Shown: in pieces, positions 848 to 60,058 of the stretch
Numbering within the stretch: the first letter of the stretch is position 1
How the letters are laid out: each line of letters starts with the position of its first letter
DNA from: an uncultured Candidatus Saccharibacteria bacterium
GTDB lineage: Bacteria > Patescibacteriota > Minisyncoccia > Phycocordibacterales > CAIRYW01
Length of the DNA stretch: 64,000 nucleotides
Reading direction: 5' to 3'
Assembly: GCA_964446625.1 (NCBI GenBank)
Contig: CAYUPH010000002.1
Span: 5,743 to 69,742, forward strand
Position numbers and translations under genes: made by a program
Notes under the pieces: model-generated
Database searches by the model: none
What the model was told of the DNA's origin: nothing
What the model saw: only the letters and a program-made list of their open reading frames with translations

Positions 848-1345
848 TCATCTCCAAATCCATTTGCTTTTTAGTTCGAGTGAACGTTGCATGATGTGAT
901 CACCGATCTCACCCCAGTCAAAATATTTCTTATAATCAGCGGGGTCAATAAGTTCAATCTTTGTAATATCTCCATCTGGATCATTTGTGAATGGACCAAA
1001 TGGTTCGACAATACACAATGATCTTGTCTGCGACACAACACCTTGTGGCTCTGTTATGTCCTGGCAACCAATAAAGCGTTGTCTGATGACGTTCATATTT
1101 GTCTCTTCCTTTACTTCTCGTCTTACTGCATCGGGTGCGCTTTCACCAAGCTCAACTCCGCCACCTGGTGGTGTCCAATATCCTTTCTTTTCGCTGTATA
1201 CAAGGACTAGTTTACCTTCGCAAAAACAATATGCGTGTACGCCTTGAATCTTCTTATCACCGAGATCAAGCTCACTATTGATATCGTTGTAAACAACATC
1301 TAACACTTGCCCCAATCGATTTTTTAGAGTTGACCTTATTTCCAT
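848..1345 (-). CDS. NUDIX hydrolase
   Basis: Nudix box GGGVELGESAPDAVRREVKEETNM (GX5EX7REVxEExG pattern). Confidence 0.85.
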   Translation of the reverse strand: MEIRSTLKNRLGQVLDVVYNDINSELDLGDKKIQGVHAYCFCEGKLVLVYSEKKGYWTPPGGGVELGESAPDAVRREVKEETNMNVIRQRFIGCQDITEPQGVVSQTRSLCIVEPFGPFTNDPDGDITKIELIDPADYKKYFDWGEIGDHIMQRSLELKSKWIWR

Positions 1346-1492: not shown

Positions 1493-1548
1493 AGAAACCT
1501 CCAACAAAAAACCGTCCACCTTGAGACGGTTTTTTGTTGGAGGTTTCT
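1493..1548. terminator. Perfect 24-bp-arm palindrome with 8-nt loop; inner part is a classic bidirectional terminator (aaaaaaccgtc..gacggtttttt)
   Basis: agaaacctccaacaaaaaaccgtc / caccttga / gacggttttttgttggaggtttct. The arms are exact reverse complements. Confidence 0.5.
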
Positions 1549-1887: not shown

Positions 1888-1896
1888 TGATATAAT
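1888..1896 (+). promoter_or_regulatory. Extended -10 (TGaTATAAT) 6 nt upstream of the ATG at 1903, leaderless configuration
   Basis: Sequence tgatataat gtacac ATG; no SD sequence present. Confidence 0.4.
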
Positions 1897-1902
1897 GTAC
1901 AC

Positions 1903-2424
1903 ATGTCACATATCAATATAGAAATAAAAGCGCGTTGTTTTAATCAAGATAGAATTAGAGAAATTCTTAAAAATGAGAACGCGGATTTTAAGGGAGTCGA
2001 TCACCAAATTGATACTTACTTTAAATCCCCTAACGGACGTCTCAAATTGCGCCAGGGCAACATAGAAAATTTTCTTATTTTTTATAATCGAGAAGATAAA
2101 GAAGGACCGAAGCAATCCGACGTCACATTACTAAAGATAGACCCTGGTAACTCGCCCAAAAATATTCTTGAACAAGCAATAGGGATACTAGTAGAAGTTG
2201 ATAAACAAAGAGAAATTTACTTTATTGGAAATATAAAATTTCACTTAGATAACGTGAAAGACCTTGGTACATTTGTTGAAGTTGAAGCAATAGACAAAGA
2301 TGGCTCAATTGGGAAAGAGAAACTACTTGAACAATGTAATGAGTATTTAAAAAAGTTCGATATAAAGGACAAAGACCTGATTTCTGTTTCTTATAGTGAT
2401 TTGTTGCTTAAAAATAATTCATAA
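1903..2424 (+). CDS. CYTH-domain protein (class IV adenylate cyclase / triphosphate tunnel metalloenzyme family)
   Basis: N-terminal EIEIKARC-type motif (INIEIKARC) and the overall 173-aa CYTH pattern. Lies in an AT-rich region (about 32% GC). Confidence 0.7.
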   Translation: MSHINIEIKARCFNQDRIREILKNENADFKGVDHQIDTYFKSPNGRLKLRQGNIENFLIFYNREDKEGPKQSDVTLLKIDPGNSPKNILEQAIGILVEVDKQREIYFIGNIKFHLDNVKDLGTFVEVEAIDKDGSIGKEKLLEQCNEYLKKFDIKDKDLISVSYSDLLLKNNS

Positions 2425-2770: not shown

Positions 2771-3307
2771 TTACTTACAATTTTTCTCTAGATAATCAAA
2801 CAGTAACTCAAACTCTTCAGGGTGATCAACAAAGTTTTCATCTTTGTTTTCTATCATTCTTTTAAATTCAGAAATAGGTACTAATTTGACTTCTGAAACT
2901 TCTTCCTTCTGCCTTTTTATATCCTCTAGTTTAATTTCTGTCTTTAGTATATAAACAGGATTTATCTCATTGTTTATTAGAGCTCCTATTACCTGCATTT
3001 GTTTTACAACACCAATTAAAGTAAAAAAAGTTTCTGGGAAAACTAACCCAAGCTCTTCCTCTGTTTCTCGCACCGCTGAAGTAATATCACTTTCTCCTGC
3101 TGAAACATGCCCCGCCGAAGATATGTCCCACATACCAGGATTGCTTTCTTTTTGTGGAGATCTTTTTTGAATTAAAACCTGCTTATCTGGAGTAATGATC
3201 CATACATGGACAGATCTGTGCCAAAAACCTTTTTCATGGGCTTCTTTTTTAGAACTTATTGTTCCAGTTGGATTTCCTTCACTATCATATATATCTAAGT
3301 ATTCCAT
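2771..3307 (-). CDS. NUDIX hydrolase
   Basis: Nudix box GHVSAGESDITSAVRETEEELGL. Confidence 0.85.
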   Translation of the reverse strand: MEYLDIYDSEGNPTGTISSKKEAHEKGFWHRSVHVWIITPDKQVLIQKRSPQKESNPGMWDISSAGHVSAGESDITSAVRETEEELGLVFPETFFTLIGVVKQMQVIGALINNEINPVYILKTEIKLEDIKRQKEEVSEVKLVPISEFKRMIENKDENFVDHPEEFELLFDYLEKNCK

Positions 3308-3372
3308 ATAAAGAGTATACTTTATTTGTTCTGTTTACAAAACACATGCAGAAATGTATAGTTCTGAGTAGT

Positions 3373-3636
3373 ATGATAAATCTACAATTCAGGCGGGACT
3401 TACCCAACTTCACTCTAGCTTTTAGTGACCTGGAAGCATTCAAATTGGGAGAAGTGCTCCAACACACACTTTCAGGCGAGGATCCTCCTGATGAAGAGCT
3501 AGGTGATCCGGCAGAAACAATGCCGGAGGTAGGCGATGCGATACCTTGGGAATGTGGAGTCGAGGAGGGCTGGGCGGAAGTATTGTCTACCGACCCAAAT
3601 GGTCCTACCCCATCGTTTATATGGAAAATAATATGA
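3373..3636 (+). CDS. Hypothetical small acidic protein; coding status ambiguous (could be ncRNA)
   Basis: A GC-rich (about 48%) patch sits inside an AT-rich block. Overlapping ORFs are open on both strands; the minus-strand one is an S/P low-complexity translation that looks spurious. Confidence 0.2.
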   Translation: MINLQFRRDLPNFTLAFSDLEAFKLGEVLQHTLSGEDPPDEELGDPAETMPEVGDAIPWECGVEEGWAEVLSTDPNGPTPSFIWKII

Positions 3637-4231: not shown

Positions 4232-4260
4232 GTGCTATCTTTGAAGTAGACACTTTGCTT

Positions 4261-4479
4261 ATGAAAAAAAAGGCATTGCTCAGACACATTCAAGGTATAG
4301 AAAAGATTTTACACCTGCTCAGTCACCCAAATACCCACATACATGTATGCCCAAAGTGCGGAAGTGCCTGGTCTCATTCGAGCGACGAAAAAGGAGACCC
4401 AGAAAAAAAGCACACCTGTCCCACTTGTGGAACAATTGAGTATAGAGTGAGTAGGCATCTTAACCCCAGACTCTCTTAA
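4261..4479 (+). CDS. Small zinc-ribbon protein (CPKCG...CPTCG)
   Basis: Two CxxC pairs. The ORF-track start at 4255 is a TTG; the first in-frame ATG is at 4261. Confidence 0.55.
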   Translation: MKKKALLRHIQGIEKILHLLSHPNTHIHVCPKCGSAWSHSSDEKGDPEKKHTCPTCGTIEYRVSRHLNPRLS

Positions 4480-4546
4480 AAGTAAGGTGCTGGGCTTTTT
4501 TATTTTCTTAATGAAAACAAAATTTTTGTTTTGTTATAATTGTGGC

Positions 4547-5482
4547 ATGAAAAACACATTAAAATTTATTTTCTCAATTATCATCTGTCAGCTCGCGGGT
4601 GCTATTGGCGCCATTTTTACCACACCTTCAATCGATTCATGGTACGACACTTTAGTAAAACCTAGTTTTGTGCCACCCAACTCCGTTTTCGGACCGGTTT
4701 GGACCATCCTTTTTGTCCTCATGGGTATTTCACTATTTCTCATTTGGAAAAAAGGTTTAGAGAAAAGAGAAATTAAAATTGCTGTTTCCCTCTTTGCGCT
4801 TCAACTTATTTTAAACGTCCTTTGGTCATTTATCTTTTTTGGTGCACACTCACTTGTTGGCGGATTTATTGAAATTATTTTTCTCTGGCTCTCTATTCTT
4901 GTGTGTATTTTATATTTTTGGAGAATATCAAAAGGCGCATCACTCCTCCTCGTGCCTTATATTCTCTGGGTGAGTTTCGCTGGTTTTCTCAACTTCTCTC
5001 TCATCTCGCTCAACAGCGAGACGCCTCAAAACCCCTCTCCTACTACCCTTCCAGACGAAACAGACTCATGGAAAACCCTAGCGGACGAATCTTCGGGTGC
5101 GACTTTCAAATACCCAGAAAGTATTGATTTAAAATATGTAAGTCTCTTTGACTGGCCACCAAAAGTGCAAATTCTAAACAATAAATTTACGTGCACCGAA
5201 GCAGGAACATCGACTCTGCGCGGAGGACAAACAACAGAGGAGGAAATAAATGGCACAAAATTTTGTGTGACAAAAATCATGGAAGGTGCCGCTGGAAGCA
5301 CTTATACGGAGTACGCTTATGCTTTTGGAGTAGAGGACAAAACTGCAATTTTCACTTTTACTCTTCGTTCACCAAATTGCGGAAATTATGACGAGCCTCA
5401 AATGAGCGAATGTAAAGCAGAGCAAGACTCTTTTGACTTTGGACCGACTGTTTCCAAAATCGCAAAGTCTCTAAAATTCTAA
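4547..5482 (+). CDS. tspO: TspO/MBR (tryptophan-rich sensory protein) with a C-terminal extension of about 150 aa, soluble and Cys-containing
   Basis: WYDTLVKPSFVPPNSVFGPVWTILFVLMGISLFLIW plus 5 TM segments give the TspO signature. TGtTATAAT box at 4532-4540 lies 6 nt before the ATG at 4547. Confidence 0.85.
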   Translation: MKNTLKFIFSIIICQLAGAIGAIFTTPSIDSWYDTLVKPSFVPPNSVFGPVWTILFVLMGISLFLIWKKGLEKREIKIAVSLFALQLILNVLWSFIFFGAHSLVGGFIEIIFLWLSILVCILYFWRISKGASLLLVPYILWVSFAGFLNFSLISLNSETPQNPSPTTLPDETDSWKTLADESSGATFKYPESIDLKYVSLFDWPPKVQILNNKFTCTEAGTSTLRGGQTTEEEINGTKFCVTKIMEGAAGSTYTEYAYAFGVEDKTAIFTFTLRSPNCGNYDEPQMSECKAEQDSFDFGPTVSKIAKSLKF

Positions 5483-5513
5483 TCTCCCTTCCCTCGTCCA
5501 CACAAAAACCTTT

Positions 5514-5552
5514 CCTCTCTTCAAGGTTCGGCCTTGAAGAGAGGGTTTTATA
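5514..5552 (+). terminator. Rho-independent terminator after tspO
   Basis: cctctcttcaagg ttcgg ccttgaagagagg followed by gtttta. Confidence 0.6.
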
Positions 5553-5566
5553 TTTAGAAATATATG

Positions 5567-5596
5567 TTTGACAATATGAATTAAAGAAAGGTATAA
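5567..5596 (+). promoter_or_regulatory. Sigma70-like promoter TTGACA-18 nt-TATAAA
   Basis: ttgaca atatgaattaaagaaagg tataaa. Confidence 0.45.
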
Positions 5597-5602
5597 ATAT
5601 CA

Positions 5603-5908
5603 GCGGTTCGAGAAAAAACCAACTCGGTTTCATGAAAACACCTAAAATCATAGTGCGGTGGAGAAGTGGAGGAGCAGTCATTATCACCAACAAAAGGCGG
5701 CTCCGAATTGGACCCGATGATCAAATTCGAAAAGTATTTGGGGTGAAAATCATTCTCTTCAACATTTCGCGTCCTAAAAAGATTACTTACATGGGCATCC
5801 GAAAAACCAGGCGAGCAAAAATGATAAAGTTTCAGGTTAAACCTGGCCGAGATAAATTTCTTTATTTTTAGGCATTTTTATCACGCACCTTTAGGTAGCG
5901 TGGTTTTT
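5603..5908 (+). ncRNA. Candidate ~300-nt transcript bounded by a promoter and a terminator. Either an ncRNA or an mRNA for a 79-aa very basic peptide (5632..5871)
   Basis: Promoter at 5567-5596 and a terminator hairpin plus T7 at about 5882-5908. The ORF lacks an SD and uses CGG/AGG/CGA Arg codons that are rare elsewhere in the window. Confidence 0.3.
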
Positions 5909-5921
5909 TTATTTCAATCTT

Positions 5922-5982
5922 CGAAGACCTCCCTTTTTGAAAACGAGCCTTATGCCAGGCCGTGGCAAAGGGCGGACCTTCG
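5922..5982 (+). repeat. Structured repeat copy 1: hairpin with a conserved 28-nt core, gaaaacgagccttatgccaggccgtggc
   Basis: Core identical to 7237-7264. Flanking arms cgaag...cttcg are imperfectly complementary. Confidence 0.6.
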
Positions 5983-6012
5983 GAAGGATTTAATCTTTGA
6001 TATACTATTTTT

Positions 6013-6543
6013 ATGAAAAAAGCACTCATGATAATCGATATGCAAAAAGGTTTTCGTTTTCCTGAAACCGAATCAATAATTCCCTCAACCCAATCTCTTC
6101 GCCATCAATTTAAAGGGAGTACTATTTTTACTAAGTTTATTGATTCACCAAATTCAAACTTTGAAAAACAGCTAAACTGGACTACTTTTCAAAATAAAGA
6201 AAAACAAGAAATTTTAACAGAATTCTCTTTAAAAGACAGCGACAAAGTTTTTACACATTCGACTTATAATCCCGTTACTAATGAGCTTCTCTCTTATTTA
6301 AGTCAGAATCAAATCAAACAAGTTTTTCTTTCGGGAATATACACAGATGTCTCTGTAGCGTATGCTGCAATGACTTTTTTTGATGCAGGAATTGAAACTT
6401 TTGTCATTTCTGACTGTACAAACTCAGTACATAAAAACCAAAAAAATAAAATCCATGAATCTGCACTTGAGAGTCTTTCTCATATTCTTGGAAAAGACCA
6501 TATATTATCTTCAAAAATGGTTCTAGAAATGTATCTACCTTAG
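6013..6543 (+). CDS. Isochorismatase-family cysteine hydrolase (nicotinamidase/PncA-like)
   Basis: N-terminal ALMIIDMQKGF motif and VISDCT catalytic Cys region. TGaTATACT box lies 6 nt before the ATG. Confidence 0.75.
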   Translation: MKKALMIIDMQKGFRFPETESIIPSTQSLRHQFKGSTIFTKFIDSPNSNFEKQLNWTTFQNKEKQEILTEFSLKDSDKVFTHSTYNPVTNELLSYLSQNQIKQVFLSGIYTDVSVAYAAMTFFDAGIETFVISDCTNSVHKNQKNKIHESALESLSHILGKDHILSSKMVLEMYLP

Positions 6544-6623
6544 TGTTTGTTTTTGTAAAACCTATCCAAAAGCTACTTTGAAACTTCTTTTTGGTATGTT
6601 ATTTTAGCTTCAACGTACCTTTT

Positions 6624-7178
6624 ATGATACCTAGCCCACCTACCCCACAGCCTCTTGGCGACGAAGATTTGGCACGTCTTGAAGGATGGAAGGCTTTTTT
6701 TTACCAAACATCTAGAAGATGCAAAATCGTAACTCCAACTGATGAAGGTTTCGGAGCTCTTGTTGGAAAGATTGCATCTAGAACAAGAGAACACCTGAGA
6801 ATGCAACCTCCTGACTTTTTTGAAAATTGGCCTTCATTGAAGAATATTGCTTTTCTTGTCTTATTGGACTCATCTAGGCCAAATACTCCGCCAGAGTTCC
6901 GAATTGAAGACATATTCATATTCTGTTGGGATAACATTGCATTTGCTCCCGCTTGGTATTCGTGGACCGGCGATGGTGAACTTGCACCTGATAAACTCGA
7001 ATGGTCGCTCGACGGAAGCCCGGATAAGTCGTGGAGGTCAGTTACTGCACATATCACCAAAACACTTCTGCAATACCACGCCCAGGTGCCTCCTCCGCCC
7101 TTAACAGCATATGACCTTGAAAAGCAGCGGGAGGGCATAGATTTTTTTGGGGATATGCTCACTGAAAAGCCGAACTAG
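6624..7178 (+). CDS. Hypothetical protein
   Basis: 184 aa from the first in-frame ATG (the track start at 6591 is TTG). GC is about 44%. A plus-strand terminator immediately downstream supports the plus-strand reading over the antisense ORF. Confidence 0.45.
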   Translation: MIPSPPTPQPLGDEDLARLEGWKAFFYQTSRRCKIVTPTDEGFGALVGKIASRTREHLRMQPPDFFENWPSLKNIAFLVLLDSSRPNTPPEFRIEDIFIFCWDNIAFAPAWYSWTGDGELAPDKLEWSLDGSPDKSWRSVTAHITKTLLQYHAQVPPPPLTAYDLEKQREGIDFFGDMLTEKPN

Positions 7179-7183
7179 ACTCA

Positions 7184-7210
7184 ACCACCCTAACCGGTGG
7201 TTTTTTTTAT
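7184..7210 (+). terminator. Hairpin aaccacc ctaacc ggtggtt plus T8
   Basis: Read from the sequence. Confidence 0.5.
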
Positions 7211-7219
7211 TCCCCTCTT

Positions 7220-7279
7220 CAAGGACCGCCCTTGTCGAAAACGAGCCTTATGCCAGGCCGTGGCGAAGGGCGGTCCTTG
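7220..7279 (+). repeat. Structured repeat copy 2: perfect 14-bp stem (caaggaccgccctt/aagggcggtccttg) enclosing a 32-nt loop that contains the conserved core
   Basis: Core 7237-7264 is identical to 5939-5966. Stem positions show compensatory changes relative to copy 1. Confidence 0.6.
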
Positions 7280-7337
7280 AAAAAAAGATTTGGAAAGGAG
7301 ATAAAAATATGCGCAAAGGTTTTGGTATACTTTAAAT

Positions 7338-7817
7338 ATGAAAAAGGTTTTGACACTGTGTCTTCCAATTCGCGATGGCAAGGTACTCCTTGGAATGAAG
7401 AAGCGCGGATTTGGTGCGTGTTCTTGGAACGGATTTGGTGGAAAAGTTGAAGAAGGTGAAAGTATAGAAGAAGCTGCGCATCGAGAATTAGAAGAAGAAT
7501 CAGGAATCACCGAAGCAACTCTTCTCCCTGCTGGAACTTTGGAATTTGTTTTTAAAGATAGCGACGCACACCTTGAGGTACATGTGTTTAAGACGGAAGA
7601 ATTTTTGGGAAACGGAATTGAAACTGAAGAGATGTCACCAAAGTGGTTTCCTTTTTCTGAAATTCCATTTGAACAAATGTGGTCCGACGACAAATATTGG
7701 TTTCCTCTGCTTCTCGAGGGAAAGAAATTTAAAAGTAGTTTTGTTTTTGATGAACCAAGTTCAACTACCAAGAAAGGTGAAATTGTTTCTTATGTTTTAA
7801 ATGAAATAAATGATTAA
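7338..7817 (+). CDS. NUDIX hydrolase (MutT/MTH1-like)
   Basis: GFGGKVEEGESIEEAAHRELEEESG. TGgTATACT lies 6 nt before the ATG. A possible 8-codon uORF (7309..7335) with an AGGAG SD is immediately upstream. Confidence 0.85.
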   Translation: MKKVLTLCLPIRDGKVLLGMKKRGFGACSWNGFGGKVEEGESIEEAAHRELEEESGITEATLLPAGTLEFVFKDSDAHLEVHVFKTEEFLGNGIETEEMSPKWFPFSEIPFEQMWSDDKYWFPLLLEGKKFKSSFVFDEPSSTTKKGEIVSYVLNEIND

Positions 7818-10833: not shown

Positions 10834-10886
10834 ATAAATAGTTGTATTATGTTCTCTTAAAGCGACTCCTATATTATACTATATGT

Positions 10887-11234
10887 ATGCAAAAACTTTT
10901 ACAGAGCTTCAGGTATGCCAAAAGCGGTCTTCTCACAGTACTCCGCGAAGAAGACAATTTTCAAGTTGAAATAATTATGAGCGTCGCTGTATGCATTCTT
11001 GGATTTTTGGTTCACCTAGGTAGAGGCGAATGGCTTTTTATTTGCGTTGCAATCACTCTTGTTCTTTCTTCTGAAATCATAAACACTGTAGTTGAAGACC
11101 TATGTAACAAAATCGAACCCACCCACAACAATGTCATTGGAAAAATAAAAGACATGTCCGCAGCGTTTACTTTGGTAATGTGCATTGGAAGCGCTATTAT
11201 CGGACTTATTATTTTCTTACCGCATTTTTTCTAG
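10887..11234 (+). CDS. dgkA: Diacylglycerol/undecaprenol kinase DgkA family
   Basis: SFRYAKSGL, EDNFQVE, 3 TM and a C-terminal IEP/NN motif. TATACT lies 6 nt before the ATG at 10887. Confidence 0.7.
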   Translation: MQKLLQSFRYAKSGLLTVLREEDNFQVEIIMSVAVCILGFLVHLGRGEWLFICVAITLVLSSEIINTVVEDLCNKIEPTHNNVIGKIKDMSAAFTLVMCIGSAIIGLIIFLPHFF

Positions 11235-16471: not shown

Positions 16472-17077
16472 ATGCACATGCTTTCATATATTGATCCAAA
16501 ATTTATAATTGAAACCCTTGGAACAGCCGGAGTAGTGGCTGTTATATTTGCTGAGTCTGGACTTTTTTTTGGCTTTTTCCTCCCAGGTGATTCTCTTCTC
16601 TTTACTGCAGGACTCTTGGCTTCACAGGATATTTTAAATATTTACTCTCTGCTTATTTTTTGTTTCTTAGGAGCAACCCTTGGTGACACTGTCGGATACT
16701 GGTTTGGCAAAAAGGTAGGTCCAAAACTTTTTAAAAAAGAACACTCTTTCTTTTGGAATAAAAATCATATTGAAAAATCACGAAACTTTTTTGAGAAACA
16801 CGGAAAGAAAGCAATTATTCTTGCTCGCTTTATACCTATCGTTCGAACATTCACCCCTATTCTTGCGGGTGTAGGAAGTATGGAATACAAAACGTTTCTT
16901 TCTTACAATATTATAGGCGGTCTTTTTTGGATAGGACTTATGCTTCTTGGTGGATTTATGTTTGGAAACCTAATTCCAAACCCTGACAAATATCTTCTAC
17001 CAGTCGTTTTACTCATTATTTTTACCTCACTTATTCCTCCGGCTCTGGAATTTTTTAAGAAGAAAAAAACAGAGTAG
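16472..17077 (+). CDS. DedA-family membrane protein
   Basis: FFLPGDSLLFTAGLLAS and ARFIPIVRTF motifs. Confidence 0.8.
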   Translation: MHMLSYIDPKFIIETLGTAGVVAVIFAESGLFFGFFLPGDSLLFTAGLLASQDILNIYSLLIFCFLGATLGDTVGYWFGKKVGPKLFKKEHSFFWNKNHIEKSRNFFEKHGKKAIILARFIPIVRTFTPILAGVGSMEYKTFLSYNIIGGLFWIGLMLLGGFMFGNLIPNPDKYLLPVVLLIIFTSLIPPALEFFKKKKTE

Positions 17078-17514: not shown

Positions 17515-17548
17515 TACAAAAAATCCTCGGTTATCCGAGGATTTTTTG
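17515..17548. terminator. Bidirectional terminator aaaaaatcctcgg ttat ccgaggatttttt
   Basis: Perfect stem with flanking A- and T-runs between mscL and the convergent NUDIX gene. Confidence 0.7.
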
Positions 17549-17950
17549 TGCTTTATATAGAGTGTCTCTTGTTTCTTCGAAAGTAAAAAGCGAGAGAGCT
17601 TCTTCACTTGTCACCCAACGCATTTCATCTATGTCATCAAAAGGTTCCCCCACCTTTTCTTCGGTCTCTATTTTACCAATAAAGAATTTGTTTATTTTTT
17701 GCGCTTTTTCTCCTTCTCGAGTAGTAAAGACATACGTCTCCTCAACTAAAGGTCCCTCAATCTTTTCTGGCGATCTGATTCCCGTTTCTTCCTCAAATTC
17801 TCTTCGCGCTGTCTGCTCTTCACTTTCCCCTTCTTCTGGTGTTCCTTTTGGAAATCCCCAATGATTGCCTGACTTATTTTTTACGATCAAAAAAGTTCTT
17901 CCGCTTTCATCTTCTTTATATACAATGATCCCAAATGATGTGTGTACCAT
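17531..17950 (-). CDS. NUDIX hydrolase (Ap4A-hydrolase-like)
   Basis: GFPKGTPEEGESEEQTARREFEEETG. Confidence 0.85.
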   Translation of the reverse strand: MVHTSFGIIVYKEDESGRTFLIVKNKSGNHWGFPKGTPEEGESEEQTARREFEEETGIRSPEKIEGPLVEETYVFTTREGEKAQKINKFFIGKIETEEKVGEPFDDIDEMRWVTSEEALSLFTFEETRDTLYKAQKILG

Positions 17951-23908: not shown

Positions 23909-25141
23909 TTAGTTAAACCAATTACCAAATAAACTGCTAAAGAAACCTTTTTTCTTTTTTCTTTTTAAAGCTTCTTTAACTGCCCCGTTTCCTCCTCCGT
24001 ACCCACCTCCACCATATTTGTGAACCTGTCTCGTCACGCCCCCGCCTTGATATTTACCCTCTGCCTGCGCTACAGTAGAAGAAGTGCTTTGAGAAGAACC
24101 CTCTGTAACTTCCTCAACTTGTGTAATCAATGTCTCACCAAGTCCCATTTTTTCTGTTACAGACTCTATCACCCTCATTCTCTCAGCAATTTTATGACTA
24201 TAATCTCTTGCAGTATCAAGATTCTTCTGATTAGCTTTAATATCTTTTTCAATAGCCACAAGACCTTCTCTTAGCTCCCTACTTTTTTCCTCTAACCTCA
24301 ATATTAGTGCATTTGCAGTGCCGTCTTTTCTTTCAGACTTAGTTCTTTCAATTAGAGACTGGATGCTATTAATCTTATTAGAAATTCCAACATATTCTGC
24401 CCTTAGTCTCTCCAGCTCCCCTTCCAATCCCTTTAGTTTTGCCTCATTTTCCTCTAAATTTGCCTCATTAGCAATTTTTTCCATAAATTCAACTCCAATT
24501 CTTTCTAAAATCACACCTCTCACATTCTCTCCTCCATTTTGCATTTCCTCTAAAATCTGCTTTTCTATCTCAATATTCCTTTGTAACTGAGACAATTCAC
24601 CCTGCGCCTTTTCTAATTGATCTATTTTCTGGTTATAGATCTCTGCATCGCTTCCATATTGGGCCTCAAGTAGACTGACCACATCAACATTATTAGGATT
24701 CTGTATATCATTCTCTAGTATCTCTAGTCTACGACGCATTATATTTAATTCATTTTGAAGCTCCGCCACTTCAACTGTTTTTTTTGCTCTATCTACTTCC
24801 AAAAGTCGTACTTCCTCTTTTTTACTAAAAATACTTTCTTTCGATTTATTAAACGCTTTTACTTGTACATCTTCTCTTAGCTGACTTTCCACATCTCTTC
24901 CCTCAAAAAAAGCTTTAGCTTTTTTGCCACCAAAAAACTCAACAATCCTCCTTGCAGGACTTACTCTTTTTTCTTTCTTAGGATCACCTGATTTTTCTTG
25001 AGACTCTACAAACTCTTCATTAGGAGCAGTGTTTCCCTCTATATCTTCGTGGTTTCCACCATCCAATAACTCATCAGGCTCAGTTTCACCTCCACTTGCC
25101 TCAGCGCCTCCTCCTAAAACTATTCTATTTTCATCAAGCAT
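23909..25141 (-). CDS. Coiled-coil protein with acidic N-terminus, Gly-rich region and a C-terminal amphipathic tail (KKKKGFFSSLFGNWFN)
   Basis: Long heptad region. The start is chosen at 25141 because a TGgTATAAT box lies 6 nt upstream; the alternative ATG at 25183 overlaps truB. Confidence 0.7.
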   Translation of the reverse strand: MLDENRIVLGGGAEASGGETEPDELLDGGNHEDIEGNTAPNEEFVESQEKSGDPKKEKRVSPARRIVEFFGGKKAKAFFEGRDVESQLREDVQVKAFNKSKESIFSKKEEVRLLEVDRAKKTVEVAELQNELNIMRRRLEILENDIQNPNNVDVVSLLEAQYGSDAEIYNQKIDQLEKAQGELSQLQRNIEIEKQILEEMQNGGENVRGVILERIGVEFMEKIANEANLEENEAKLKGLEGELERLRAEYVGISNKINSIQSLIERTKSERKDGTANALILRLEEKSRELREGLVAIEKDIKANQKNLDTARDYSHKIAERMRVIESVTEKMGLGETLITQVEEVTEGSSQSTSSTVAQAEGKYQGGGVTRQVHKYGGGGYGGGNGAVKEALKRKKKKGFFSSLFGNWFN

Positions 25142-25163
25142 GTACGAATTATACCACAGTGAC

Positions 25164-42047: not shown

Positions 42048-42206
42048 TTTGGGCTTTTGTCTTTTTTCGGACTGGGCTAAACAGCCCGATAACAAACAAG
42101 AGCAGTGAGGGATGAAGCGCTTCCTCACTTTTTCCTCATACAACCTACTCTTTCTCTAAACAAAAAACAAGTCCCTCTCGGGACTTGTTTTTTGTTTTTG
42201 AGATAT

Positions 42207-42533: not shown

Positions 42534-42633
42534 GTTTTTCTTTTACTCACTAAACAGCTTATAAACGGGAATGGCCGAATACCTTTTCCCACCCCAAAAG
42601 TATATCACAAATGGGGTATGTACTCAAGAAAGA

Positions 42634-46295: not shown

Positions 46296-47195
46296 CTATG
46301 CAGTTTTTGACGCCAAAAGACTAATTGCTTTTGTGACAATGGGGAGAATATCATCATAAAAATTTAGGTCAAGGATTTCATTTACTTTAAACCATTTTGC
46401 ATCGTCGAGGCCTCCTGACTCTCCAAGTGAAAGTTCAGTCATGTCTGCGCGAGCCAAAAAGTAGTTTACTTGCTTTCGGACTTTGCCTTTTTCTGGAAAA
46501 GTTGCGACATATTCATTTGAGCCAAGTTTATCTTCCGGAGTCACTTCTACTCCCATTTCTTCTTTTACTTTTCGAACAACTGCAAGCTCATCAGATTCGT
46601 CTGGTTCGTTGTGCCCCTTCGAAAGAGTCCAGTGTCCAAATACATCATGGACAAGTGCTAAGAAAATATCGTCTCCTTCACGAGCGTACACCACCGCCCC
46701 TACCAGCCTTTCAATTGGAAGAGACTCAAACGGAACCTCCTCCGCTTTTCGCTTTGAAGCCTGATCTTTTCCAGGCTCACCAAGCTCTTTGTATACCGCT
46801 CCCAAAACTCCGTTTACGAACTTTCCAGAAGTGTCTCCTCCGAAACTTTTTGCAAGCTCAATCGCTTCGTTAATCGCTACCTTTGGAGGAACTTGTGTTC
46901 TGTCAGCAAAGAGAAGCTCAAAAAGACCGATGCGGAGTACATTTCGGTCAACATTTGCAATCTTTTGAAGTGGCCAATCTGGGGCTGCTTTTTCAATAAT
47001 TCTATCGAGGTCAGGCTGTTTTTTTACAACACCCTCCGCAAGAGTTTTCATATATTCCGCGTCAGTTGAACCAGCAGCGAACTCAGAAATGTTCCGCTCT
47101 AGTGTCGGCAAAACCATATCAGATTTCTTTCCATTGAAATCCCACTCAAATATTGTTTGCAAAACGACAGACCTTGAAAGATGCCTATTGGCCAT
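46296..47195 (-). CDS. nusB: NusB antitermination factor fused to a C-terminal NUDIX hydrolase domain
   Basis: VPPKVAINEAIELAKSFGGDTSGKFVNGVL is near-identical to E. coli NusB. Then comes the Nudix box GHWTLSKGHNEPDESDELAVVRKVKEEMGV. Confidence 0.85.
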   Translation of the reverse strand: MANRHLSRSVVLQTIFEWDFNGKKSDMVLPTLERNISEFAAGSTDAEYMKTLAEGVVKKQPDLDRIIEKAAPDWPLQKIANVDRNVLRIGLFELLFADRTQVPPKVAINEAIELAKSFGGDTSGKFVNGVLGAVYKELGEPGKDQASKRKAEEVPFESLPIERLVGAVVYAREGDDIFLALVHDVFGHWTLSKGHNEPDESDELAVVRKVKEEMGVEVTPEDKLGSNEYVATFPEKGKVRKQVNYFLARADMTELSLGESGGLDDAKWFKVNEILDLNFYDDILPIVTKAISLLASKTA

Positions 47196-47531: not shown

Positions 47532-48467
47532 CTAGGTGGAACCGACCTGACCCTCAAGGAAGTCGGTAACCGTATTATACCGGTGGAACACCTCGGCAGA
47601 AAATTCTGGCGACAAGGCAGTCATTCCCCTGTTTGTTTTGAGGAAAAGACGGATTATCTCCTTGTCGAAATAGTTTCTGGATATACCCCACCCATAGATG
47701 CGCATTTCGTCGCCCGTTATTCGGTCAATAAGAATAAGGTCTCCCTGCTCATTAAATCCGAATTCGAGCTTGAAATCGACAAGTTCATGAAGACCCCGGG
47801 CGAACAACTCCTTGAGCAGATTCCCTACCTGGAGCGCCATATTCTTCATTTCCCTGAATCGGGATCGAATATCCCCATTGGTTCCGCCTACTAAGCTGAG
47901 ATCTAATTGAGAAGCATAGCCTGCATGCTGGCTTGTCCCAGCTTTTAGCACATGTATCCAATCATCCAGGACTTTAATCTGTGTGTCAGGTAGAAAAAAG
48001 CCCGGCTTAAGAAATAGCAGAGGATCGTCAAGTCGGTCATTCTTATAGAAAAACTCAACAACTGGAGTCTCAAGTGGCGTGCCGACTGGAAATCTTTGAC
48101 TTTTCGCATACGAACCATCCGCGACAAATCGAACCACCACTTCAAGTGGTAGCGCGGTTGCTCGCGTTATAGGGATTTTTGTTCCCTCCCGAGGGCCGCC
48201 TGTAAAACAGGTGTGAATCCCCTTTTCCTGAAGGTAACGCCATATTACATGCGCTTGGCGCATTCGCACCTCACCCATGCCTGGAATAGTGATGCGACTC
48301 TTGCCGTTTCCGGCGGTCACATCATTCGTGCAATCCAGAAAACATTGCTCTCCATATTCAATAACCCGGGCAACCTTGCCCGCATGAATTATTTTCATGG
48401 CTTTTTCGTAGATACGTACCTCAACAAAAGTCCGGCCACGGACCAATTTCAAGGTACTAGTTTTCAA
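47532..48467 (-). CDS. purC: SAICAR synthetase (phosphoribosylaminoimidazole-succinocarboxamide synthase)
   Basis: LVDFKLEFGFNEQGDLILIDRITGDEMRIY matches the VDFKLEFG...DE..PD motif. N-terminal AGKVARVIEY...TAGNGKSRI. GC is about 48%. The track start at 48467 is TTG; the first ATG is at 48398. Confidence 0.8.
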   Translation of the reverse strand: MKTSTLKLVRGRTFVEVRIYEKAMKIIHAGKVARVIEYGEQCFLDCTNDVTAGNGKSRITIPGMGEVRMRQAHVIWRYLQEKGIHTCFTGGPREGTKIPITRATALPLEVVVRFVADGSYAKSQRFPVGTPLETPVVEFFYKNDRLDDPLLFLKPGFFLPDTQIKVLDDWIHVLKAGTSQHAGYASQLDLSLVGGTNGDIRSRFREMKNMALQVGNLLKELFARGLHELVDFKLEFGFNEQGDLILIDRITGDEMRIYGWGISRNYFDKEIIRLFLKTNRGMTALSPEFSAEVFHRYNTVTDFLEGQVGST

Positions 48468-57689: not shown

Positions 57690-57708
57690 GTCTCAATTAT
57701 ATCAGTTT

Positions 57709-58459: not shown

Positions 58460-60016
58460 ATGCATACAGAAGAACATCGAACAGAAGAGCACCATATTGA
58501 AATCGTAGAAGGAGGAGTTCATGGCACTCACGATGTGAGCGACTCGCACGGGGCGGACGAATCTGAAAACGAGGGTTTCTCTTCAAAAATAATCAAATGG
58601 ATTGTAATAGCAGGTATTTTAATCGTGCTTCTTATTGCGAGTATTGCGATTGTAAAACTTGTTCCAAAGGCAATTTCTAAAATTTCTGGTGCAGCAGTCT
58701 TTCTTGGACAAGGAGGAAGCAACCTCGCTGTTGGAACAAACAAATCTTCAGTTCGAAGTGAAGATTCTTTTTCTGTTACTTGGAAAGGAAAAGAATACGA
58801 AAACGAAGTTTATCGAAGCGTTAGCTTTAAATGTGTCTCTGGTATAACAGTTGAATACAAATCAACAAACGGCATGAAGCCTGTTATTTGTGATACTGTC
58901 TTCCCTCTTCCAAACACTCCAGAAGGGTCTTTTCCTTTTGTGGTTACTTCTCTTCTTTCAGAAAAAGAAGAACTTCCTTTCGTAATCTCTGTTACAGACA
59001 AACTTGAAAACAAAGTTATTGTAAGTAATGCGAGTTCAGTAGATGTATTTCCAAAAGGTAGCGGTAATGACTCTGCACCTGGTGACTACACACCCGATTA
59101 CTCTAACCCAAATCCAAGCACAGGAACCGCAACATCAACAAACTCAGGCGCTGGTTCAAAAGATACAACCAAAACTCCACCTAAAACTACAACTGGTGGA
59201 ACAGGATGGGGTGGAAACACTTCTTCTTCTGGAGGATATGGAACATCATACACTGGCGCTGAAACAGGAAACCCTGATCTAAGGCTTGTCCTTACAAATG
59301 TATATGTCACTGACAGACAGACAGGAAACAATAAATCTACTTCTAATATTTACAGTGGAGATAGAATAACAGCACGGTTCCAAGTAACAAACATTGGAAC
59401 GCGCTCTTCTGGACTTTGGGTACTTAACGCACAAATTCCTTCTTCAAACGCAGCCGACAGATCTTACACTTCTGGGTACCAGCCATCACTTACACCAGGA
59501 AGTGTTTACGAAATGGTAATTGGTTTCGATTCATACGACGGAAACGGTGACCTTGTACTCACCGCATCAAACAATAATGATGCAAATCCTTCTAACAATC
59601 AGCTTGTGGTACCACTCGACGGAAATGGTAGCTCTTCTGGAAACAATGGACGAGCTGACCTTACTGTCCGAATTACGGGAGTTGGAATTTCCAATGGAAA
59701 CGGGAGCATATACTACACAAACAATTTTGACGAAAGCGATGAAATCGCAGTTCGTTTTGAAATCGAAAACATTGGTGGAACTCAAAGCGGACGATTTTCT
59801 TTTGAGGCTGAGCTTCCTTCACGAGATGATGATACCTATTCATCTCCAAACTATTCATCGCTCGCTCCTGGAGAAAAACGAGAATTTGTTCTCGTGGTAG
59901 AAAATCCAGACTCTGGTTCTAGTCGAATTCGAATAAAGGTAGATCCTGATGGTGATATTCGAGAATCAAACGAAAACAACAACACAGACTCAGAAACAAT
60001 CGATATTGATAACTAA
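58460..60016 (+). CDS. Membrane-anchored surface protein with a His-rich cytoplasmic N-terminus, signal-anchor TM and two CARDB-like domains
   Basis: PDLRLVLTNVYVTD...ARFQVTNIGT and ADLTVRITG...VRFEIENIGGTQSG ... DPDGDIRESNENNN. Confidence 0.7.
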   Translation: MHTEEHRTEEHHIEIVEGGVHGTHDVSDSHGADESENEGFSSKIIKWIVIAGILIVLLIASIAIVKLVPKAISKISGAAVFLGQGGSNLAVGTNKSSVRSEDSFSVTWKGKEYENEVYRSVSFKCVSGITVEYKSTNGMKPVICDTVFPLPNTPEGSFPFVVTSLLSEKEELPFVISVTDKLENKVIVSNASSVDVFPKGSGNDSAPGDYTPDYSNPNPSTGTATSTNSGAGSKDTTKTPPKTTTGGTGWGGNTSSSGGYGTSYTGAETGNPDLRLVLTNVYVTDRQTGNNKSTSNIYSGDRITARFQVTNIGTRSSGLWVLNAQIPSSNAADRSYTSGYQPSLTPGSVYEMVIGFDSYDGNGDLVLTASNNNDANPSNNQLVVPLDGNGSSSGNNGRADLTVRITGVGISNGNGSIYYTNNFDESDEIAVRFEIENIGGTQSGRFSFEAELPSRDDDTYSSPNYSSLAPGEKREFVLVVENPDSGSSRIRIKVDPDGDIRESNENNNTDSETIDIDN

Positions 60017-60019
60017 AAC

Positions 60020-60055
60020 AAAAAGCCCCGCGCGAAGCGCGGGGCTTTTTGTTTT
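60020..60055. terminator. Bidirectional terminator aaaagccccgcgc gaa gcgcggggctttt
   Basis: Perfect 9-bp GC stem with flanking A- and T-runs between convergent genes. Confidence 0.75.
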
Positions 60056-60058
60056 AGT

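What the first reader, a model, noticed from the sequence alone, without database searches (positions are those of the whole stretch)
5922..7279. Two copies of a conserved hairpin element with an identical 28-nt core and compensatory stem changes, each upstream of a gene (isochorismatase-family hydrolase; NUDIX)
Copy 2 (7220-7279) is a perfect 14-bp stem caaggaccgccctt/aagggcggtccttg around the loop gucgAAAACGAGCCUUAUGCCAGGCCGUGGCg.

Copy 1 (5922-5982) keeps the identical core gaaaacgagccttatgccaggccgtggc and the inner ccctt/aaggg pairing. Its outer stem is cgaag/cttcg instead of caagg/ccttg.

That outer-stem difference is two compensatory base-pair substitutions (G-C to A-U at one position, A-U to G-C at another). 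This pattern is expected for a selected secondary structure rather than a decaying repeat. The core also contains a small internal hairpin GCCA-GGCCG-UGGC.

Both copies are in the same orientation, 1.3 kb apart, each 25-50 nt upstream of the -10 box of a downstream gene. Neither is followed by a U-run, so they are not terminators. They could be a cis-regulatory RNA or operator. They could also be direct repeats bounding a 1.3-kb two-gene cassette (6013-7178).

Both downstream genes belong to families with members in nicotinamide-nucleotide metabolism (PncA-type nicotinamidase; NUDIX pyrophosphatases). That link is inference only.
Basis: partly seen in the sequence, partly recalled or inferred. 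Interest (0 to 1): 0.7.

Follow-up and report, generated by a model that had tools for sequence, protein, structure and literature searches.

The report
Duplicated palindromic spacer, not a riboswitch
The two look-alike hairpins are real, but they are most likely two copies of a genus-specific palindromic stretch of intergenic DNA, left by a local 1.3-kb duplication or rearrangement in a variable gene islet, and not a conserved regulatory RNA.

Summary
The repeat is real. An 82-nt direct repeat (5900-5980 and 7197-7278, period 1298 nt) contains an identical 28-nt core. Copy W2 (7218-7281) has a perfect 16-bp stem.

The claimed compensatory changes are not real. The outer stem of W1 (5922-5982) pairs in a register shifted by +1. 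In register, none of 26 pairs changes on both sides. W1 and the copy in the sister species carry uncompensated, mostly GC-to-AT, pair-breaking changes and fold no better than shuffled sequence.

Each copy starts in the T-run of an upstream terminator. Each lies upstream of a leaderless-type promoter (TGnTATACT, 6 nt, ATG), so it is probably not in a 5' leader.

No further copy turned up in any search: Rfam, a custom covariance model over about 79 kb of this genome, relatives' loci, GTDB genomes, JGI metagenomes, viral contigs, phages or plasmids.

The sister species has one copy and none upstream of NUDIX. Its flanks match W2 on the left and W1 on the right, which points to segmental duplication or rearrangement.

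The NAD link is unsupported.

A residual hint of constraint remains: the core is conserved, and W2 differs from the sister-species copy at only 6.6% of positions.

Low interest.

The parts
5880..5911 (+). Intrinsic terminator tA of the upstream small ORF or transcript: stem CACGC...GCGTG followed by T7.
   Evidence: Fold; sequence. The tail GTGGTTTTTTTATTTCAATCTT is identical to two 22-nt copies in sister locus L009.
5904..5921 (+). Shared left flank 'm' (TTTTTTTATTTCAATCTT), part of the direct repeat.
   Evidence: Direct-repeat family D1; four-module alignment A2.
5922..5982 (+). Hairpin copy W1. The palindrome is degenerate: the inner CCCTT/AAGGG pairs, and the outer CGAAG/CTTCG pairs in a +1 shifted register.
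   Evidence: RNA fold z -1.9.
5939..5966 (+). 28-nt core, copy 1.
5998..6015 (+). Leaderless-type promoter: TGATATACT, 6 nt, then the ATG of the isochorismatase-like gene.
   Evidence: 9 matches against 0.64 expected; PMC6028130.
6013..6543 (+). Isochorismatase-family gene. It is patchily distributed and is a frameshifted pseudogene in the sister species.
6624..7178 (+). 184-aa ORFan gene. Its 3' end plus terminator is homologous to the 3' end of the 138-aa ORFan that lies upstream of the single hairpin in L009.
   Evidence: only a self hit.
7183..7210 (+). Intrinsic terminator tB: stem AACCACC...GGTGGTT followed by T8.
7202..7219 (+). Left flank m' (TTTTTTTATTCCCCTCTT), part of the direct repeat.
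7218..7281 (+). Hairpin copy W2, with a perfect 16-bp stem and a 32-nt loop.
   Evidence: RNA fold z -6.6, DNA fold z -6.8.
7237..7264 (+). 28-nt core, copy 2.
7300..7336 (+). Possible relic of the 5' coding region of an isochorismatase copy. ATATGCGCAAAGGTTTTGGT resembles 6038-6057 (ATATGCAAAAAGGTTTTCGT). Tentative.
   Evidence: (family D4), and (10 of 2000 shuffles score as high).
7323..7340 (+). Leaderless-type promoter: TGGTATACT, 6 nt, then the ATG of the NUDIX gene.
7338..7817 (+). NUDIX hydrolase of the MutT/8-oxo-dGTPase-like type, widely conserved in Parcubacteria.

Best explanation
The two hairpins are paralogous copies of one genus-restricted intergenic module, about 80 bp long. The module consists of a terminator tail (GTGG-T7-ATTTCAATCTT) followed by a 61-64-bp palindrome.

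The module was duplicated together with about 1.3 kb of adjacent DNA: promoter, isochorismatase-like gene, ORFan gene and terminator. This happened by tandem or segmental duplication or recombination inside a small variable islet between the conserved TspO and NUDIX genes.

SHOWN
- The repeat unit extends beyond the hairpin.
- The period is 1298 nt.
- The sister species has a single hairpin. Its left flank matches the left flank of W2 and its right flank matches the right flank of W1.
- The stems of W1 and of the sister copy have decayed without compensation.

INFERRED
- The ancestor carried a perfect palindrome and probably two units, and each lineage then lost a different unit.
- The element lies outside the downstream transcripts, between a terminator and a leaderless promoter.
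- The hairpin has no ligand-sensing or gene-specific regulatory role.
- At most the palindrome is a DNA-level feature that favours or marks recombination or slippage breakpoints.
For: REPEAT ANATOMY
- The direct repeat is 77-82 nt long, starts in the terminator T-run and has a period of 1298 nt.
- The downstream promoter modules are also similar (family D7; alignment A2).
- There is a possible relic of isochorismatase 5' coding sequence after W2.

SISTER SPECIES L009 (NUDIX 87% identical, TspO region 92% at the DNA level)
- It has one hairpin, at 3359-3419.
- Window 5900-6566 matches L009 3339-4004. Window 7137-7278 matches L009 3270-3419.
- Upstream of NUDIX it has only the terminator plus TTTTTTTATTTCAATCTT, and no hairpin.
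- A perfect 22-nt direct repeat in L009 brackets the segment hairpin, isochorismatase pseudogene, ORFan, terminator.

NO STRUCTURAL SELECTION
- 0 of 26 pairs change on both sides and 9 cells are unpaired.
- Fold z-scores are -1.9 for W1 and -1.6 for L009, against -6.6 for W2.
- The derived changes are mostly GC to AT (alignment).
- W1 and the L009 copy differ at 16.4% of positions, not distinguishable from the 20.3% at 4-fold sites.

RESTRICTED DISTRIBUTION
- No Rfam match.
- Only these copies in about 79 kb of contiguous genome.
- None at loci of isochorismatase or NUDIX homologues.
- None in GTDB genomes beyond 2 chance hits in coding regions.
- None in JGI metagenomes (some searches gave 5 chance hits in high-GC contigs).
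- None in viral contigs, phages or plasmids.

MOBILITY AND PROMOTERS
- No transposase, integrase or reverse transcriptase in the window.
- Both downstream genes have leaderless-type promoters.
Against: - W2 and the L009 copy differ at only 4 of 61 positions (6.6%). That is less than the 20.3% at 4-fold sites (p 0.011). W2 has no derived change at all.
- The 28-nt core has only 2 changes on the whole three-copy tree. The 22-nt tail 'm' is identical between the species.
- Some constraint, or a more recent common origin, therefore cannot be excluded. The divergence is, however, similar to that of the neighbouring TspO-ORFan intergenic region (9.5%).
- With only two genomes of the genus, the order of events cannot be polarised. 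The ORFan segments that the model equates (X against Y/Z) show no detectable similarity.
- Only about 79 kb of the genome could be searched, so dispersed copies elsewhere are not excluded.
- There are no transcript data.
Confidence: 0.55

Rival explanations
1. The element is functional and sequence-specific. The conserved 28-nt core, which contains the palindrome GCCA-N5-TGGC, would be the site. It would act as a protein-binding site upstream of the two promoters, or as a short RNA or micro-ORF signal expressed from read-through transcripts. The flanking inverted repeat would be dispensable.
For: - The core is identical in W1 and W2 and has only 2 changes in L009, while the stems carry about 9 changes.
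- W2 and the L009 copy differ at 6.6% of positions, against 20.3% at 4-fold sites.
- GCCANNNNNTGGC occurs only at these two places in 64 kb.
- The 13-codon ORF starting at ATG 5952 is MPGRGKGRTFGRI* in W1 and MPGRGEERSFGRI* in L009. It differs by 5 silent changes (counting stop to stop) and 3 replacement changes. This is my reading.
Against: - The distance from the core to the -10 box differs by 26 nt between the copies.
- No other site exists in the window or in any relative.
- L009 lacks the element upstream of NUDIX.
- Core against stem is not significantly different (2/28 against 9/36, p about 0.09, my estimate).
- Divergence equals that of ordinary neighbouring intergenic DNA.
- The micro-ORF is not preserved in W2, where it runs on for about 66 codons. 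Its signal does not survive correction for six reading frames.
- The element lies after a terminator, with no promoter of its own.
Confidence: 0.2
2. The element is mobile or recombinogenic. Either it is a very small MITE-like or PATE-like palindromic element, or it is the recombination site of a small gene-cassette system that moves the isochorismatase/ORFan segment through a circular intermediate.
For: - W2 has perfect 16-bp terminal inverted repeats.
- The homology between copies ends sharply at the 3' end of the palindrome.
- A paralogous module in L009 has the same flanks without the hairpin.
- The hairpin-bounded segment in the window is a circular permutation of the gene order in L009.
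- The cargo genes are accessory. The isochorismatase-like gene has only 16 homologues, found in unrelated contexts. The other gene is an ORFan.
Against: - There is no target-site duplication. The left boundary of the repeat extends 18-22 nt beyond the inverted repeat into the terminator tail.
- All three known copies lie in one locus. None occurs elsewhere in 79 kb or in any public collection searched.
- The window contains no transposase, integrase or Y1 HUH enzyme.
- The attC core sites RYYYAAC and GTTRRRY are absent (sequence).
- All 12 contigs of the window species read in the TspO look-up have the same gene arrangement, so no presence/absence polymorphism is seen.
Confidence: 0.17
3. One reading: a structured cis-regulatory RNA, riboswitch-like, in the 5' leaders of the isochorismatase-like and NUDIX genes, responding to an NAD-related ligand.
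For: Two same-strand copies lie upstream of two hydrolase genes. W2 forms a very stable hairpin.
Against: - No Rfam match, even at E-values up to 10.
- No covariation.
- The promoters are leaderless-type and lie downstream of the hairpins. A terminator lies immediately upstream.
- The element is absent upstream of NUDIX in the sister species and upstream of all more distant homologues.
- Neither gene is assignable to NAD metabolism.
Confidence: 0.03

Closest known systems
Low-copy segmental or tandem duplication junction repeats (paralogous intergenic modules)
   Same: - The copies are in direct orientation with a fixed period of 1298 nt.
- The repeat unit extends beyond the hairpin into the terminator tail and the promoter module.
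- The flanks of the single copy in the sister genome are split between the two copies here.
   Different: The duplicated junction happens to contain a long palindrome that was perfect in the ancestor. The order of events cannot be resolved with two genomes.
Bacterial MITEs and palindromic intergenic repeats (Correia, RPE, ERIC, REP/BIME; reviewed in PMC10969869 and PMC3184786, which I listed but did not read in full)
   Same: It is a short intergenic element with terminal inverted repeats that can form a hairpin. It sits between a terminator and a promoter. One paralogous module lacks it.
   Different: - There is no target-site duplication.
- Only 2 copies occur in about 79 kb, both in one locus.
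- There is no cognate transposase or RAYT.
- No family members occur in any other genome searched.
- The repeat boundary does not coincide with the left inverted repeat.
Integron attC sites and gene cassettes
   Same: Imperfect or perfect palindromes in the same orientation bracket small accessory genes. The gene order in the two species is circularly permuted.
   Different: - No IntI or other tyrosine recombinase is present.
- The R''/R' core sites are absent.
- Each gene has its own promoter and terminator.
- There are only two sites.
Riboswitch or leader-hairpin cis-regulators
   Same: It is a stable hairpin upstream of a gene on the coding strand.
   Different: It lies upstream of the promoter and directly after a terminator. 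It shows no covariation, matches no Rfam family and is not conserved with the genes.

Membership tests
Described cis-regulatory RNA / riboswitch (Rfam) | Match to a curated covariance model. | tested here: not met
   No match at gathering score over the whole window. At E-values up to 10 on 5850-7350 there were only chance-level hits (MIR2119, CRISPR-DR47 and others, all far below their gathering scores).
Described cis-regulatory RNA / riboswitch (Rfam) | Base pairs supported by compensatory changes. | tested here: not met
   Three copies were compared. 0 of 26 pairs change on both sides, 9 cells are unpaired, and the shuffle control shows no difference. W1's outer stem uses a +1 shifted register.
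Described cis-regulatory RNA / riboswitch (Rfam) | Located in the transcribed 5' leader of the regulated gene. | tested here: not met
   TGnTATACT lies 6 nt before each ATG. This arrangement occurs 9 times against 0.64 expected and is typical of leaderless transcription (PMC6028130). A terminator lies 11-15 nt upstream of each hairpin. This is sequence inference only; there are no transcript data.
Described cis-regulatory RNA / riboswitch (Rfam) | Conserved upstream of orthologous or homologous genes in other genomes. | tested here: not met
   The element is absent upstream of NUDIX in sister locus L009. Model R1 finds nothing at loci of NUDIX or isochorismatase homologues (L010-L015).
Intrinsic (Rho-independent) terminator | A GC-rich hairpin directly followed by a U-run. 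| tested here: not met
   W1 is followed by GAAGGATTTAATC and W2 by AAAAAAAG. The scan calls the upstream hairpin at 7183-7202 and the one at 5513-5545, but not the elements themselves.
MITE | Terminal inverted repeats. | tested here: met
   W2 has 16-nt arms that are 100% complementary. The arms are degenerate in W1 and L009.
MITE | Target-site duplication flanking the element. | tested here: not met
   The flanks are CTCTT | AAAAA for W2 and ATCTT | CGGAA for W1 and L009. No direct duplication is present.
MITE | Multiple dispersed copies in the genome. | tested here: inconclusive
   Only the two adjacent copies occur in about 79 kb of contiguous genome. The rest of the genome could not be fetched.
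MITE | A related autonomous IS or transposase. | tested here: not met
   No transposase or integrase domain was found in the window or its extensions. There is no similarity to phage or plasmid records.
REP/BIME with RAYT | High-copy palindromes of 20-40 nt with a conserved GTAG-type head, and a RAYT (Y1 transposase) gene. | tested here: not met
   The element is 61-64 nt long with a 32-nt loop and occurs in two copies. No Y1 transposase was found. The defining features are recalled from my own knowledge.
Integron attC / gene cassette | R'' (RYYYAAC) and R' (GTTRRRY) core sites at the ends of the palindrome. | tested here: not met
   Neither strand of 7210-7290 carries these motifs at the stem ends (sequence). 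The consensus motifs are recalled from my own knowledge.
Integron attC / gene cassette | An IntI tyrosine recombinase and an attI site nearby. | tested here: not met
   No integrase was found in the 64 kb or in about 15 kb of extensions.
Diversity-generating retroelement TR/VR pair | Mismatches confined to adenines of one copy, a reverse transcriptase nearby, and the VR inside a target gene. | tested here: not met
   The differences include T/C, T/G, G/A and A/T changes in both directions. Both copies are intergenic. No reverse transcriptase is present.
Segmental/tandem duplication junction | Direct repeats whose homology extends beyond the conspicuous motif into flanking functional sequence. 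| tested here: met
   The 82-nt repeat includes the terminator tail. The promoter modules are 80% similar (family D7). There is a possible relic of isochorismatase 5' coding sequence after W2.
Segmental/tandem duplication junction | The single copy in a related genome shares its left flank with one paralogue and its right flank with the other. | tested here: met
   Window 7137-7278 matches L009 3270-3419. Window 5900-6566 matches L009 3339-4004.

The most novel reading that the evidence does not exclude
The hairpin together with its terminator tail would be the recombination site of a previously undescribed, integrase-distal micro-cassette system in Parcubacteria (CPR). The system would excise and reinsert small accessory genes with their own promoters (here an atypical isochorismatase-like hydrolase and ORFans) as circles. 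That would explain the circularly permuted gene order between the two sister species, and also why the 80-nt unit is better conserved than synonymous sites.
Probability: 0.06. Interest if true: 0.6.

Novelty: new member of a known kind. Interest (0 to 1): 0.15.

Why it matters
As it stands, little. The finding removes a false lead for a new riboswitch-like RNA. It documents an ordinary, genus-restricted palindromic repeat at the breakpoints of a small rearrangement.

It has minor value as an example of how accessory genes and ORFans are reshuffled between conserved genes in streamlined CPR genomes. It is also a caution: two paralogous copies with 'compensatory-looking' stems can be a register shift plus mutational decay.

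If the residual conservation of the core or the cassette-like permutation proved functional, it would point to a new recombination or regulatory site in an uncultivated lineage.

Tried and rejected
DATABASE AND COLLECTION SEARCHES
- Rfam at gathering score and at permissive thresholds gave nothing.
- tRNA/tmRNA origin: ARAGORN finds nothing at the locus.
- Exact 20-22-mer core scans:
  - Viral contigs: 0 hits.
  - GTDB genomes: 2 hits, both inside coding regions of high-GC Sphingomonas and Nitrospira, so chance.
  - JGI metagenomes: 0 hits.
- A degenerate core pattern gave 5 hits in JGI metagenomes, all in contigs of 62-69% GC and without flanking palindromes. It gave 0 hits in viral contigs.
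- A pattern built on the inverted-repeat arms gave 0 hits in viral contigs.
- blastn against phages and plasmids gave no match.

SEARCHES WITH MY OWN MODEL
- Covariance model R1, built from three copies, was run over the window, relatives and genome extensions. It found only the known copies. A 17-bit hit at 16659-16734 lies inside a gene and has no palindrome.
- There was also a weak hit to the TspO terminator at 5512-5545.

HYPOTHESES CONSIDERED AND DROPPED
- A sigma-54 promoter on the minus strand of the core (TGGCAT...): rejected by eye because the -12 GC is missing.
- A hammerhead or other ribozyme: rejected because the conserved cores are absent and Rfam gives no hit.
- A DGR TR/VR pair: rejected because the mismatches are not adenine-specific and no reverse transcriptase is present.
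- An attC site or a Xer/dif site: rejected because the motifs and a recombinase are absent.

LOOK-UPS THAT DID NOT HELP
- Strain-level presence/absence polymorphism: the 12 contigs read in the TspO look-up show the same gene arrangement, and in every same-species locus compared by DNA both copies are present and identical.
- An attempt to extend the genome from the last ORF failed because the protein is not on record.
- Homology between the ORFan pieces, needed to resolve the rearrangement history, was not detectable beyond two short stretches.
Full report
1. OBSERVATION

The window is a low-GC (about 40%) genome segment. Its NUDIX protein finds its closest named relatives in Parcubacteria/Paceibacterota MAGs.

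The 28-nt core GAAAACGAGCCTTATGCCAGGCCGTGGC occurs exactly twice, at 5939-5966 and 7237-7264. Both are on the + strand. No further match exists at up to 3 mismatches, and none is expected by chance.

It is a 77-82-nt direct repeat (5900/5904-5980 and 7197/7202-7278, 87% identical) with a period of 1298 nt.

Copy W2 has perfect 16-nt arms (7218-7233 and 7266-7281) around a 32-nt loop. It folds at -41.3 kcal/mol as RNA, z -6.6, and z -6.8 as DNA. Copy W1 folds no better than shuffled sequence (z -1.9).

2. THE COMPENSATORY CHANGES ARE NOT REAL

The 5' arms are in register (5922+1298 = 7220). The 3' arm of W1, CTTCG (5978-5982), corresponds to CTTGA (7276-7280) in W2, not to CCTTG (7275-7279). 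W1 therefore pairs in a +1 shifted register.

I added the one copy found in a sister species, L009 (section 5). On that three-copy alignment, 0 of 26 pairs change on both sides. Nine cells are unpaired, 5 in W1 and 4 in L009. The shuffle control shows no difference.

The 'CG' at the 3' flank of W1 is shared with L009, so it was already there before the changes in W1's 5' arm. The L009 copy also folds no better than chance (z -1.6 as RNA, -1.85 as DNA). The derived substitutions in W1 and L009 are mostly GC to AT and they break pairs.

3. GENOMIC CONTEXT

Each copy begins in the T-run of an intrinsic terminator of the upstream gene:
- CACGC...GCGTG plus T7 at 5880-5911.
- AACCACC...GGTGGTT plus T8 at 7183-7210.

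Each downstream gene starts 6 nt after an extended -10 box:
- TGATATACT, then ATTTTT, then the ATG at 6013.
- TGGTATACT, then TTAAAT, then the ATG at 7338.

The pattern TGNTATAMT-N6-ATG occurs 9 times in the window against 0.64 expected. A Pribnow box 6-8 nt from the start codon is the signature of leaderless transcription (PMC6028130).

The hairpins therefore lie between a terminator and a promoter, not in a 5' leader. This is inference from sequence; there are no transcript data. The gap between the hairpin and the -10 box is 18 nt for W1 and 44 nt for W2, which argues against a fixed operator geometry.

4. THE GENES

- 6013-6543 has an Isochorismatase domain. It is far below the cut-off of every NCBIfam equivalog, including nicotinamidase.
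- In its small clade the motif reads TDVS where the Falkowbacteria homologues have TDVC, and a His is invariant in FxH. From my reading of the family's usual motifs, these are the positions of the nucleophile Cys and the catalytic Lys.
- It has only 16 detectable homologues among 5.8 billion proteins. The nearest are 56-58% identical and lie in unrelated contexts.
- 6624-7178 is an ORFan that hits only itself.
- 7338-7817 is a NUDIX protein of a type widespread in Parcubacteria. Several sources name it 8-oxo-dGTP diphosphatase.
- The NAD link is unsupported.

5. COMPARATIVE EVIDENCE

The contigs of the same species fetched for DNA comparison carry both copies with identical sequence. All 12 contigs read in the TspO look-up show the same gene arrangement.

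The only close relative available is L009 (Logan SRR32414319). Its NUDIX is 87% identical in protein, its TspO region is 92% identical in DNA, and 4-fold sites differ by 20.3%.

L009 has one hairpin, at 3359-3419, upstream of a frameshifted isochorismatase pseudogene. Upstream of NUDIX it has a terminator plus TTTTTTTATTTCAATCTT and then the promoter, with no hairpin.

The junction homologies are informative:
- Window 5900-6566 (W1 plus isochorismatase) matches L009 3339-4004.
- Window 7137-7278 (the 3' end of the 184-aa ORFan, terminator tB and W2) matches L009 3270-3419. That stretch is the 3' end of a 138-aa ORFan, its terminator and the hairpin. The shared C-terminal motif IDFFGxM is shown.
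- Window 5899-5924 (terminator tA tail) matches L009 4246-4271, which lies upstream of NUDIX.

In L009 a perfect 22-nt direct repeat, GTGGTTTTTTTATTTCAATCTT (3339-3360 and 4247-4268), brackets the segment hairpin, isochorismatase, ORFan, terminator.

The single L009 hairpin therefore shares its left flank with W2 and its right flank with W1. The gene orders between TspO and NUDIX in the two species are circular permutations of each other.

A coherent, though unproven, model is an ancestral tandem duplication of a unit of about 1.3 kb: tail, hairpin, promoter, isochorismatase, ORFan, terminator. Each lineage would then have lost a different part. Two observations fit this model:
- There is a possible relic of isochorismatase 5' coding sequence directly after W2 (7306-7325 against 6038-6057; 10 of 2000 shuffles score as high).
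- W2 is closer to the L009 copy (4/61 differences) than W1 is (10/61).

6. DISTRIBUTION

No other copy was found anywhere:
- Rfam.
- About 79 kb of contiguous own genome, searched with covariance model R1.
- Loci of NUDIX and isochorismatase homologues.
- GTDB species genomes, which gave 2 chance hits in coding DNA.
- JGI metagenomes.
- IMG/VR viral contigs.
- Phages and plasmids.

The window is core genome (rpoB/C, sigA, dnaG, dnaE, gyrB, aminoacyl-tRNA synthetases). It contains no transposase, integrase or reverse transcriptase.

7. WHAT SPEAKS FOR SOME CONSTRAINT

- W2 and the L009 copy differ at 6.6% of positions, below the 4-fold-site divergence (p 0.011).
- W2 has no derived change.
- The core carries only 2 changes on the three-copy tree.
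- The 22-nt tail is identical across the species.

Against this:
- The neighbouring TspO-ORFan intergenic region is equally conserved (9.5% divergence).
- W1 and the L009 copy differ at 16.4%, which is indistinguishable from neutral.
- The contrast between core and stem is not significant (p about 0.09, my estimate).

A 13-codon ORF starts at the ATG in the loop: MPGRGKGRTFGRI* in W1 and MPGRGEERSFGRI* in L009. It shows 5 silent and 3 replacement differences. It is not preserved in W2, and the signal is too weak to survive correction for six reading frames.

8. VERDICT

- Best explanation (0.55): paralogous copies of a genus-restricted palindromic intergenic module, duplicated with about 1.3 kb of DNA in a variable islet. 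The palindrome was perfect in the ancestor, is decaying in two of three copies, and has no demonstrated function.
- Rival (0.2): a sequence-specific functional core.
- Rival (0.17): a mobile or recombination-site element.
- Rival (0.03): the riboswitch-like RNA.

The feature is real but ordinary. It is a new member of the known kind 'lineage-specific palindromic intergenic repeat at a duplication junction'.

Noticed in passing
window 1888-1905, 2441-2458, 4532-4549, 5998-6015, 7323-7340, 10872-10889, 25139-25156(-), 42590-42607(-), 57687-57704(-): An extended -10 box (TGnTATAAT or TGnTATACT) lies exactly 6 nt before a start codon 9 times, against 0.64 expected. Many genes of this CPR genome therefore appear to be transcribed without a leader.
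   Followed up: partly
window 5545-7330; L009 2845-4298: The interval between the conserved TspO and NUDIX genes is a small variable islet.
- The ORFan genes differ between the sister species: 79 and 184 aa here, 138 and 60 aa in L009.
- Their 3' ends and terminators are swapped in position.
- The isochorismatase-like gene is intact here but frameshifted in L009.
   Followed up: partly
window 5569-5911: A TTGACA-17-TATAAA promoter is followed by about 300 nt and a terminator. The 79-aa ORF inside it (5632-5871) is not called as a gene in any public assembly. Only its first 35 codons or so are homologous to the 138-aa ORF of L009. It may be a decaying gene or a small RNA.
   Followed up: no
window 5512-5545 and 7210-7234; L009 2811-2843: The TspO terminator (CCTCTCTTCAAGG-TTCGG-CCTTGAAGAGAGG) is 84% identical over 25 nt to the left flank and 5' arm of W2 (family D6). 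Model R1 hits it weakly (14.5 bits). Each arm of the palindrome is itself a mini-hairpin (CAAGG-ACCGC-CCTTG). The palindrome may have arisen from a terminator-like hairpin.
   Followed up: no
window 7292-7336: A strong Shine-Dalgarno-like GGAAAGGAG lies 8 nt before an 8-codon ORF (ATG 7310, MRKGFGIL*). The ORF ends 1 nt before the NUDIX ATG. Its sequence resembles codons 9-15 of the isochorismatase-like gene, so it is possibly a gene relic.
   Followed up: partly
window 5952-5993; L009 3391-3432: A 13-codon ORF starts at the ATG in the hairpin loop: MPGRGKGRTFGRI* here and MPGRGEERSFGRI* in L009. It differs by 5 silent and 3 replacement changes. It is not preserved in W2. The statistics are weak.
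   Followed up: partly
window 6013-6543: The isochorismatase-like protein and its three closest homologues read TDVS where the Falkowbacteria homologues have TDVC, and a His is invariant in FxH. From my reading of the family's usual motifs these are the nucleophile Cys and catalytic Lys positions. The Falkowbacteria homologues keep the Cys but have Gly in place of the Asp. This is an atypical subfamily with only 16 members detected.
   Followed up: partly
window 848-1345(-), 2771-3307(-), 7338-7817, 17531-17950(-), 46296-47195(-): There are five NUDIX-domain genes in 64 kb. One of them is a NusB-NUDIX fusion.
   Followed up: no
window 48142-48232: ARAGORN calls a 91-nt tRNA-Lys(ttt) on the + strand, inside the minus-strand SAICAR-synthetase ORF 47532-48467. 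The length and the overlap are unusual. It may be a false positive or a mis-extended ORF.
   Followed up: no
window 1493-1548, 60011-60059, 42158-42197: There are very long perfect palindromes (18-24-nt arms, A/T-rich with a GC clamp and loops of 3-8 nt) between genes. They look like bidirectional terminators.
   Followed up: no
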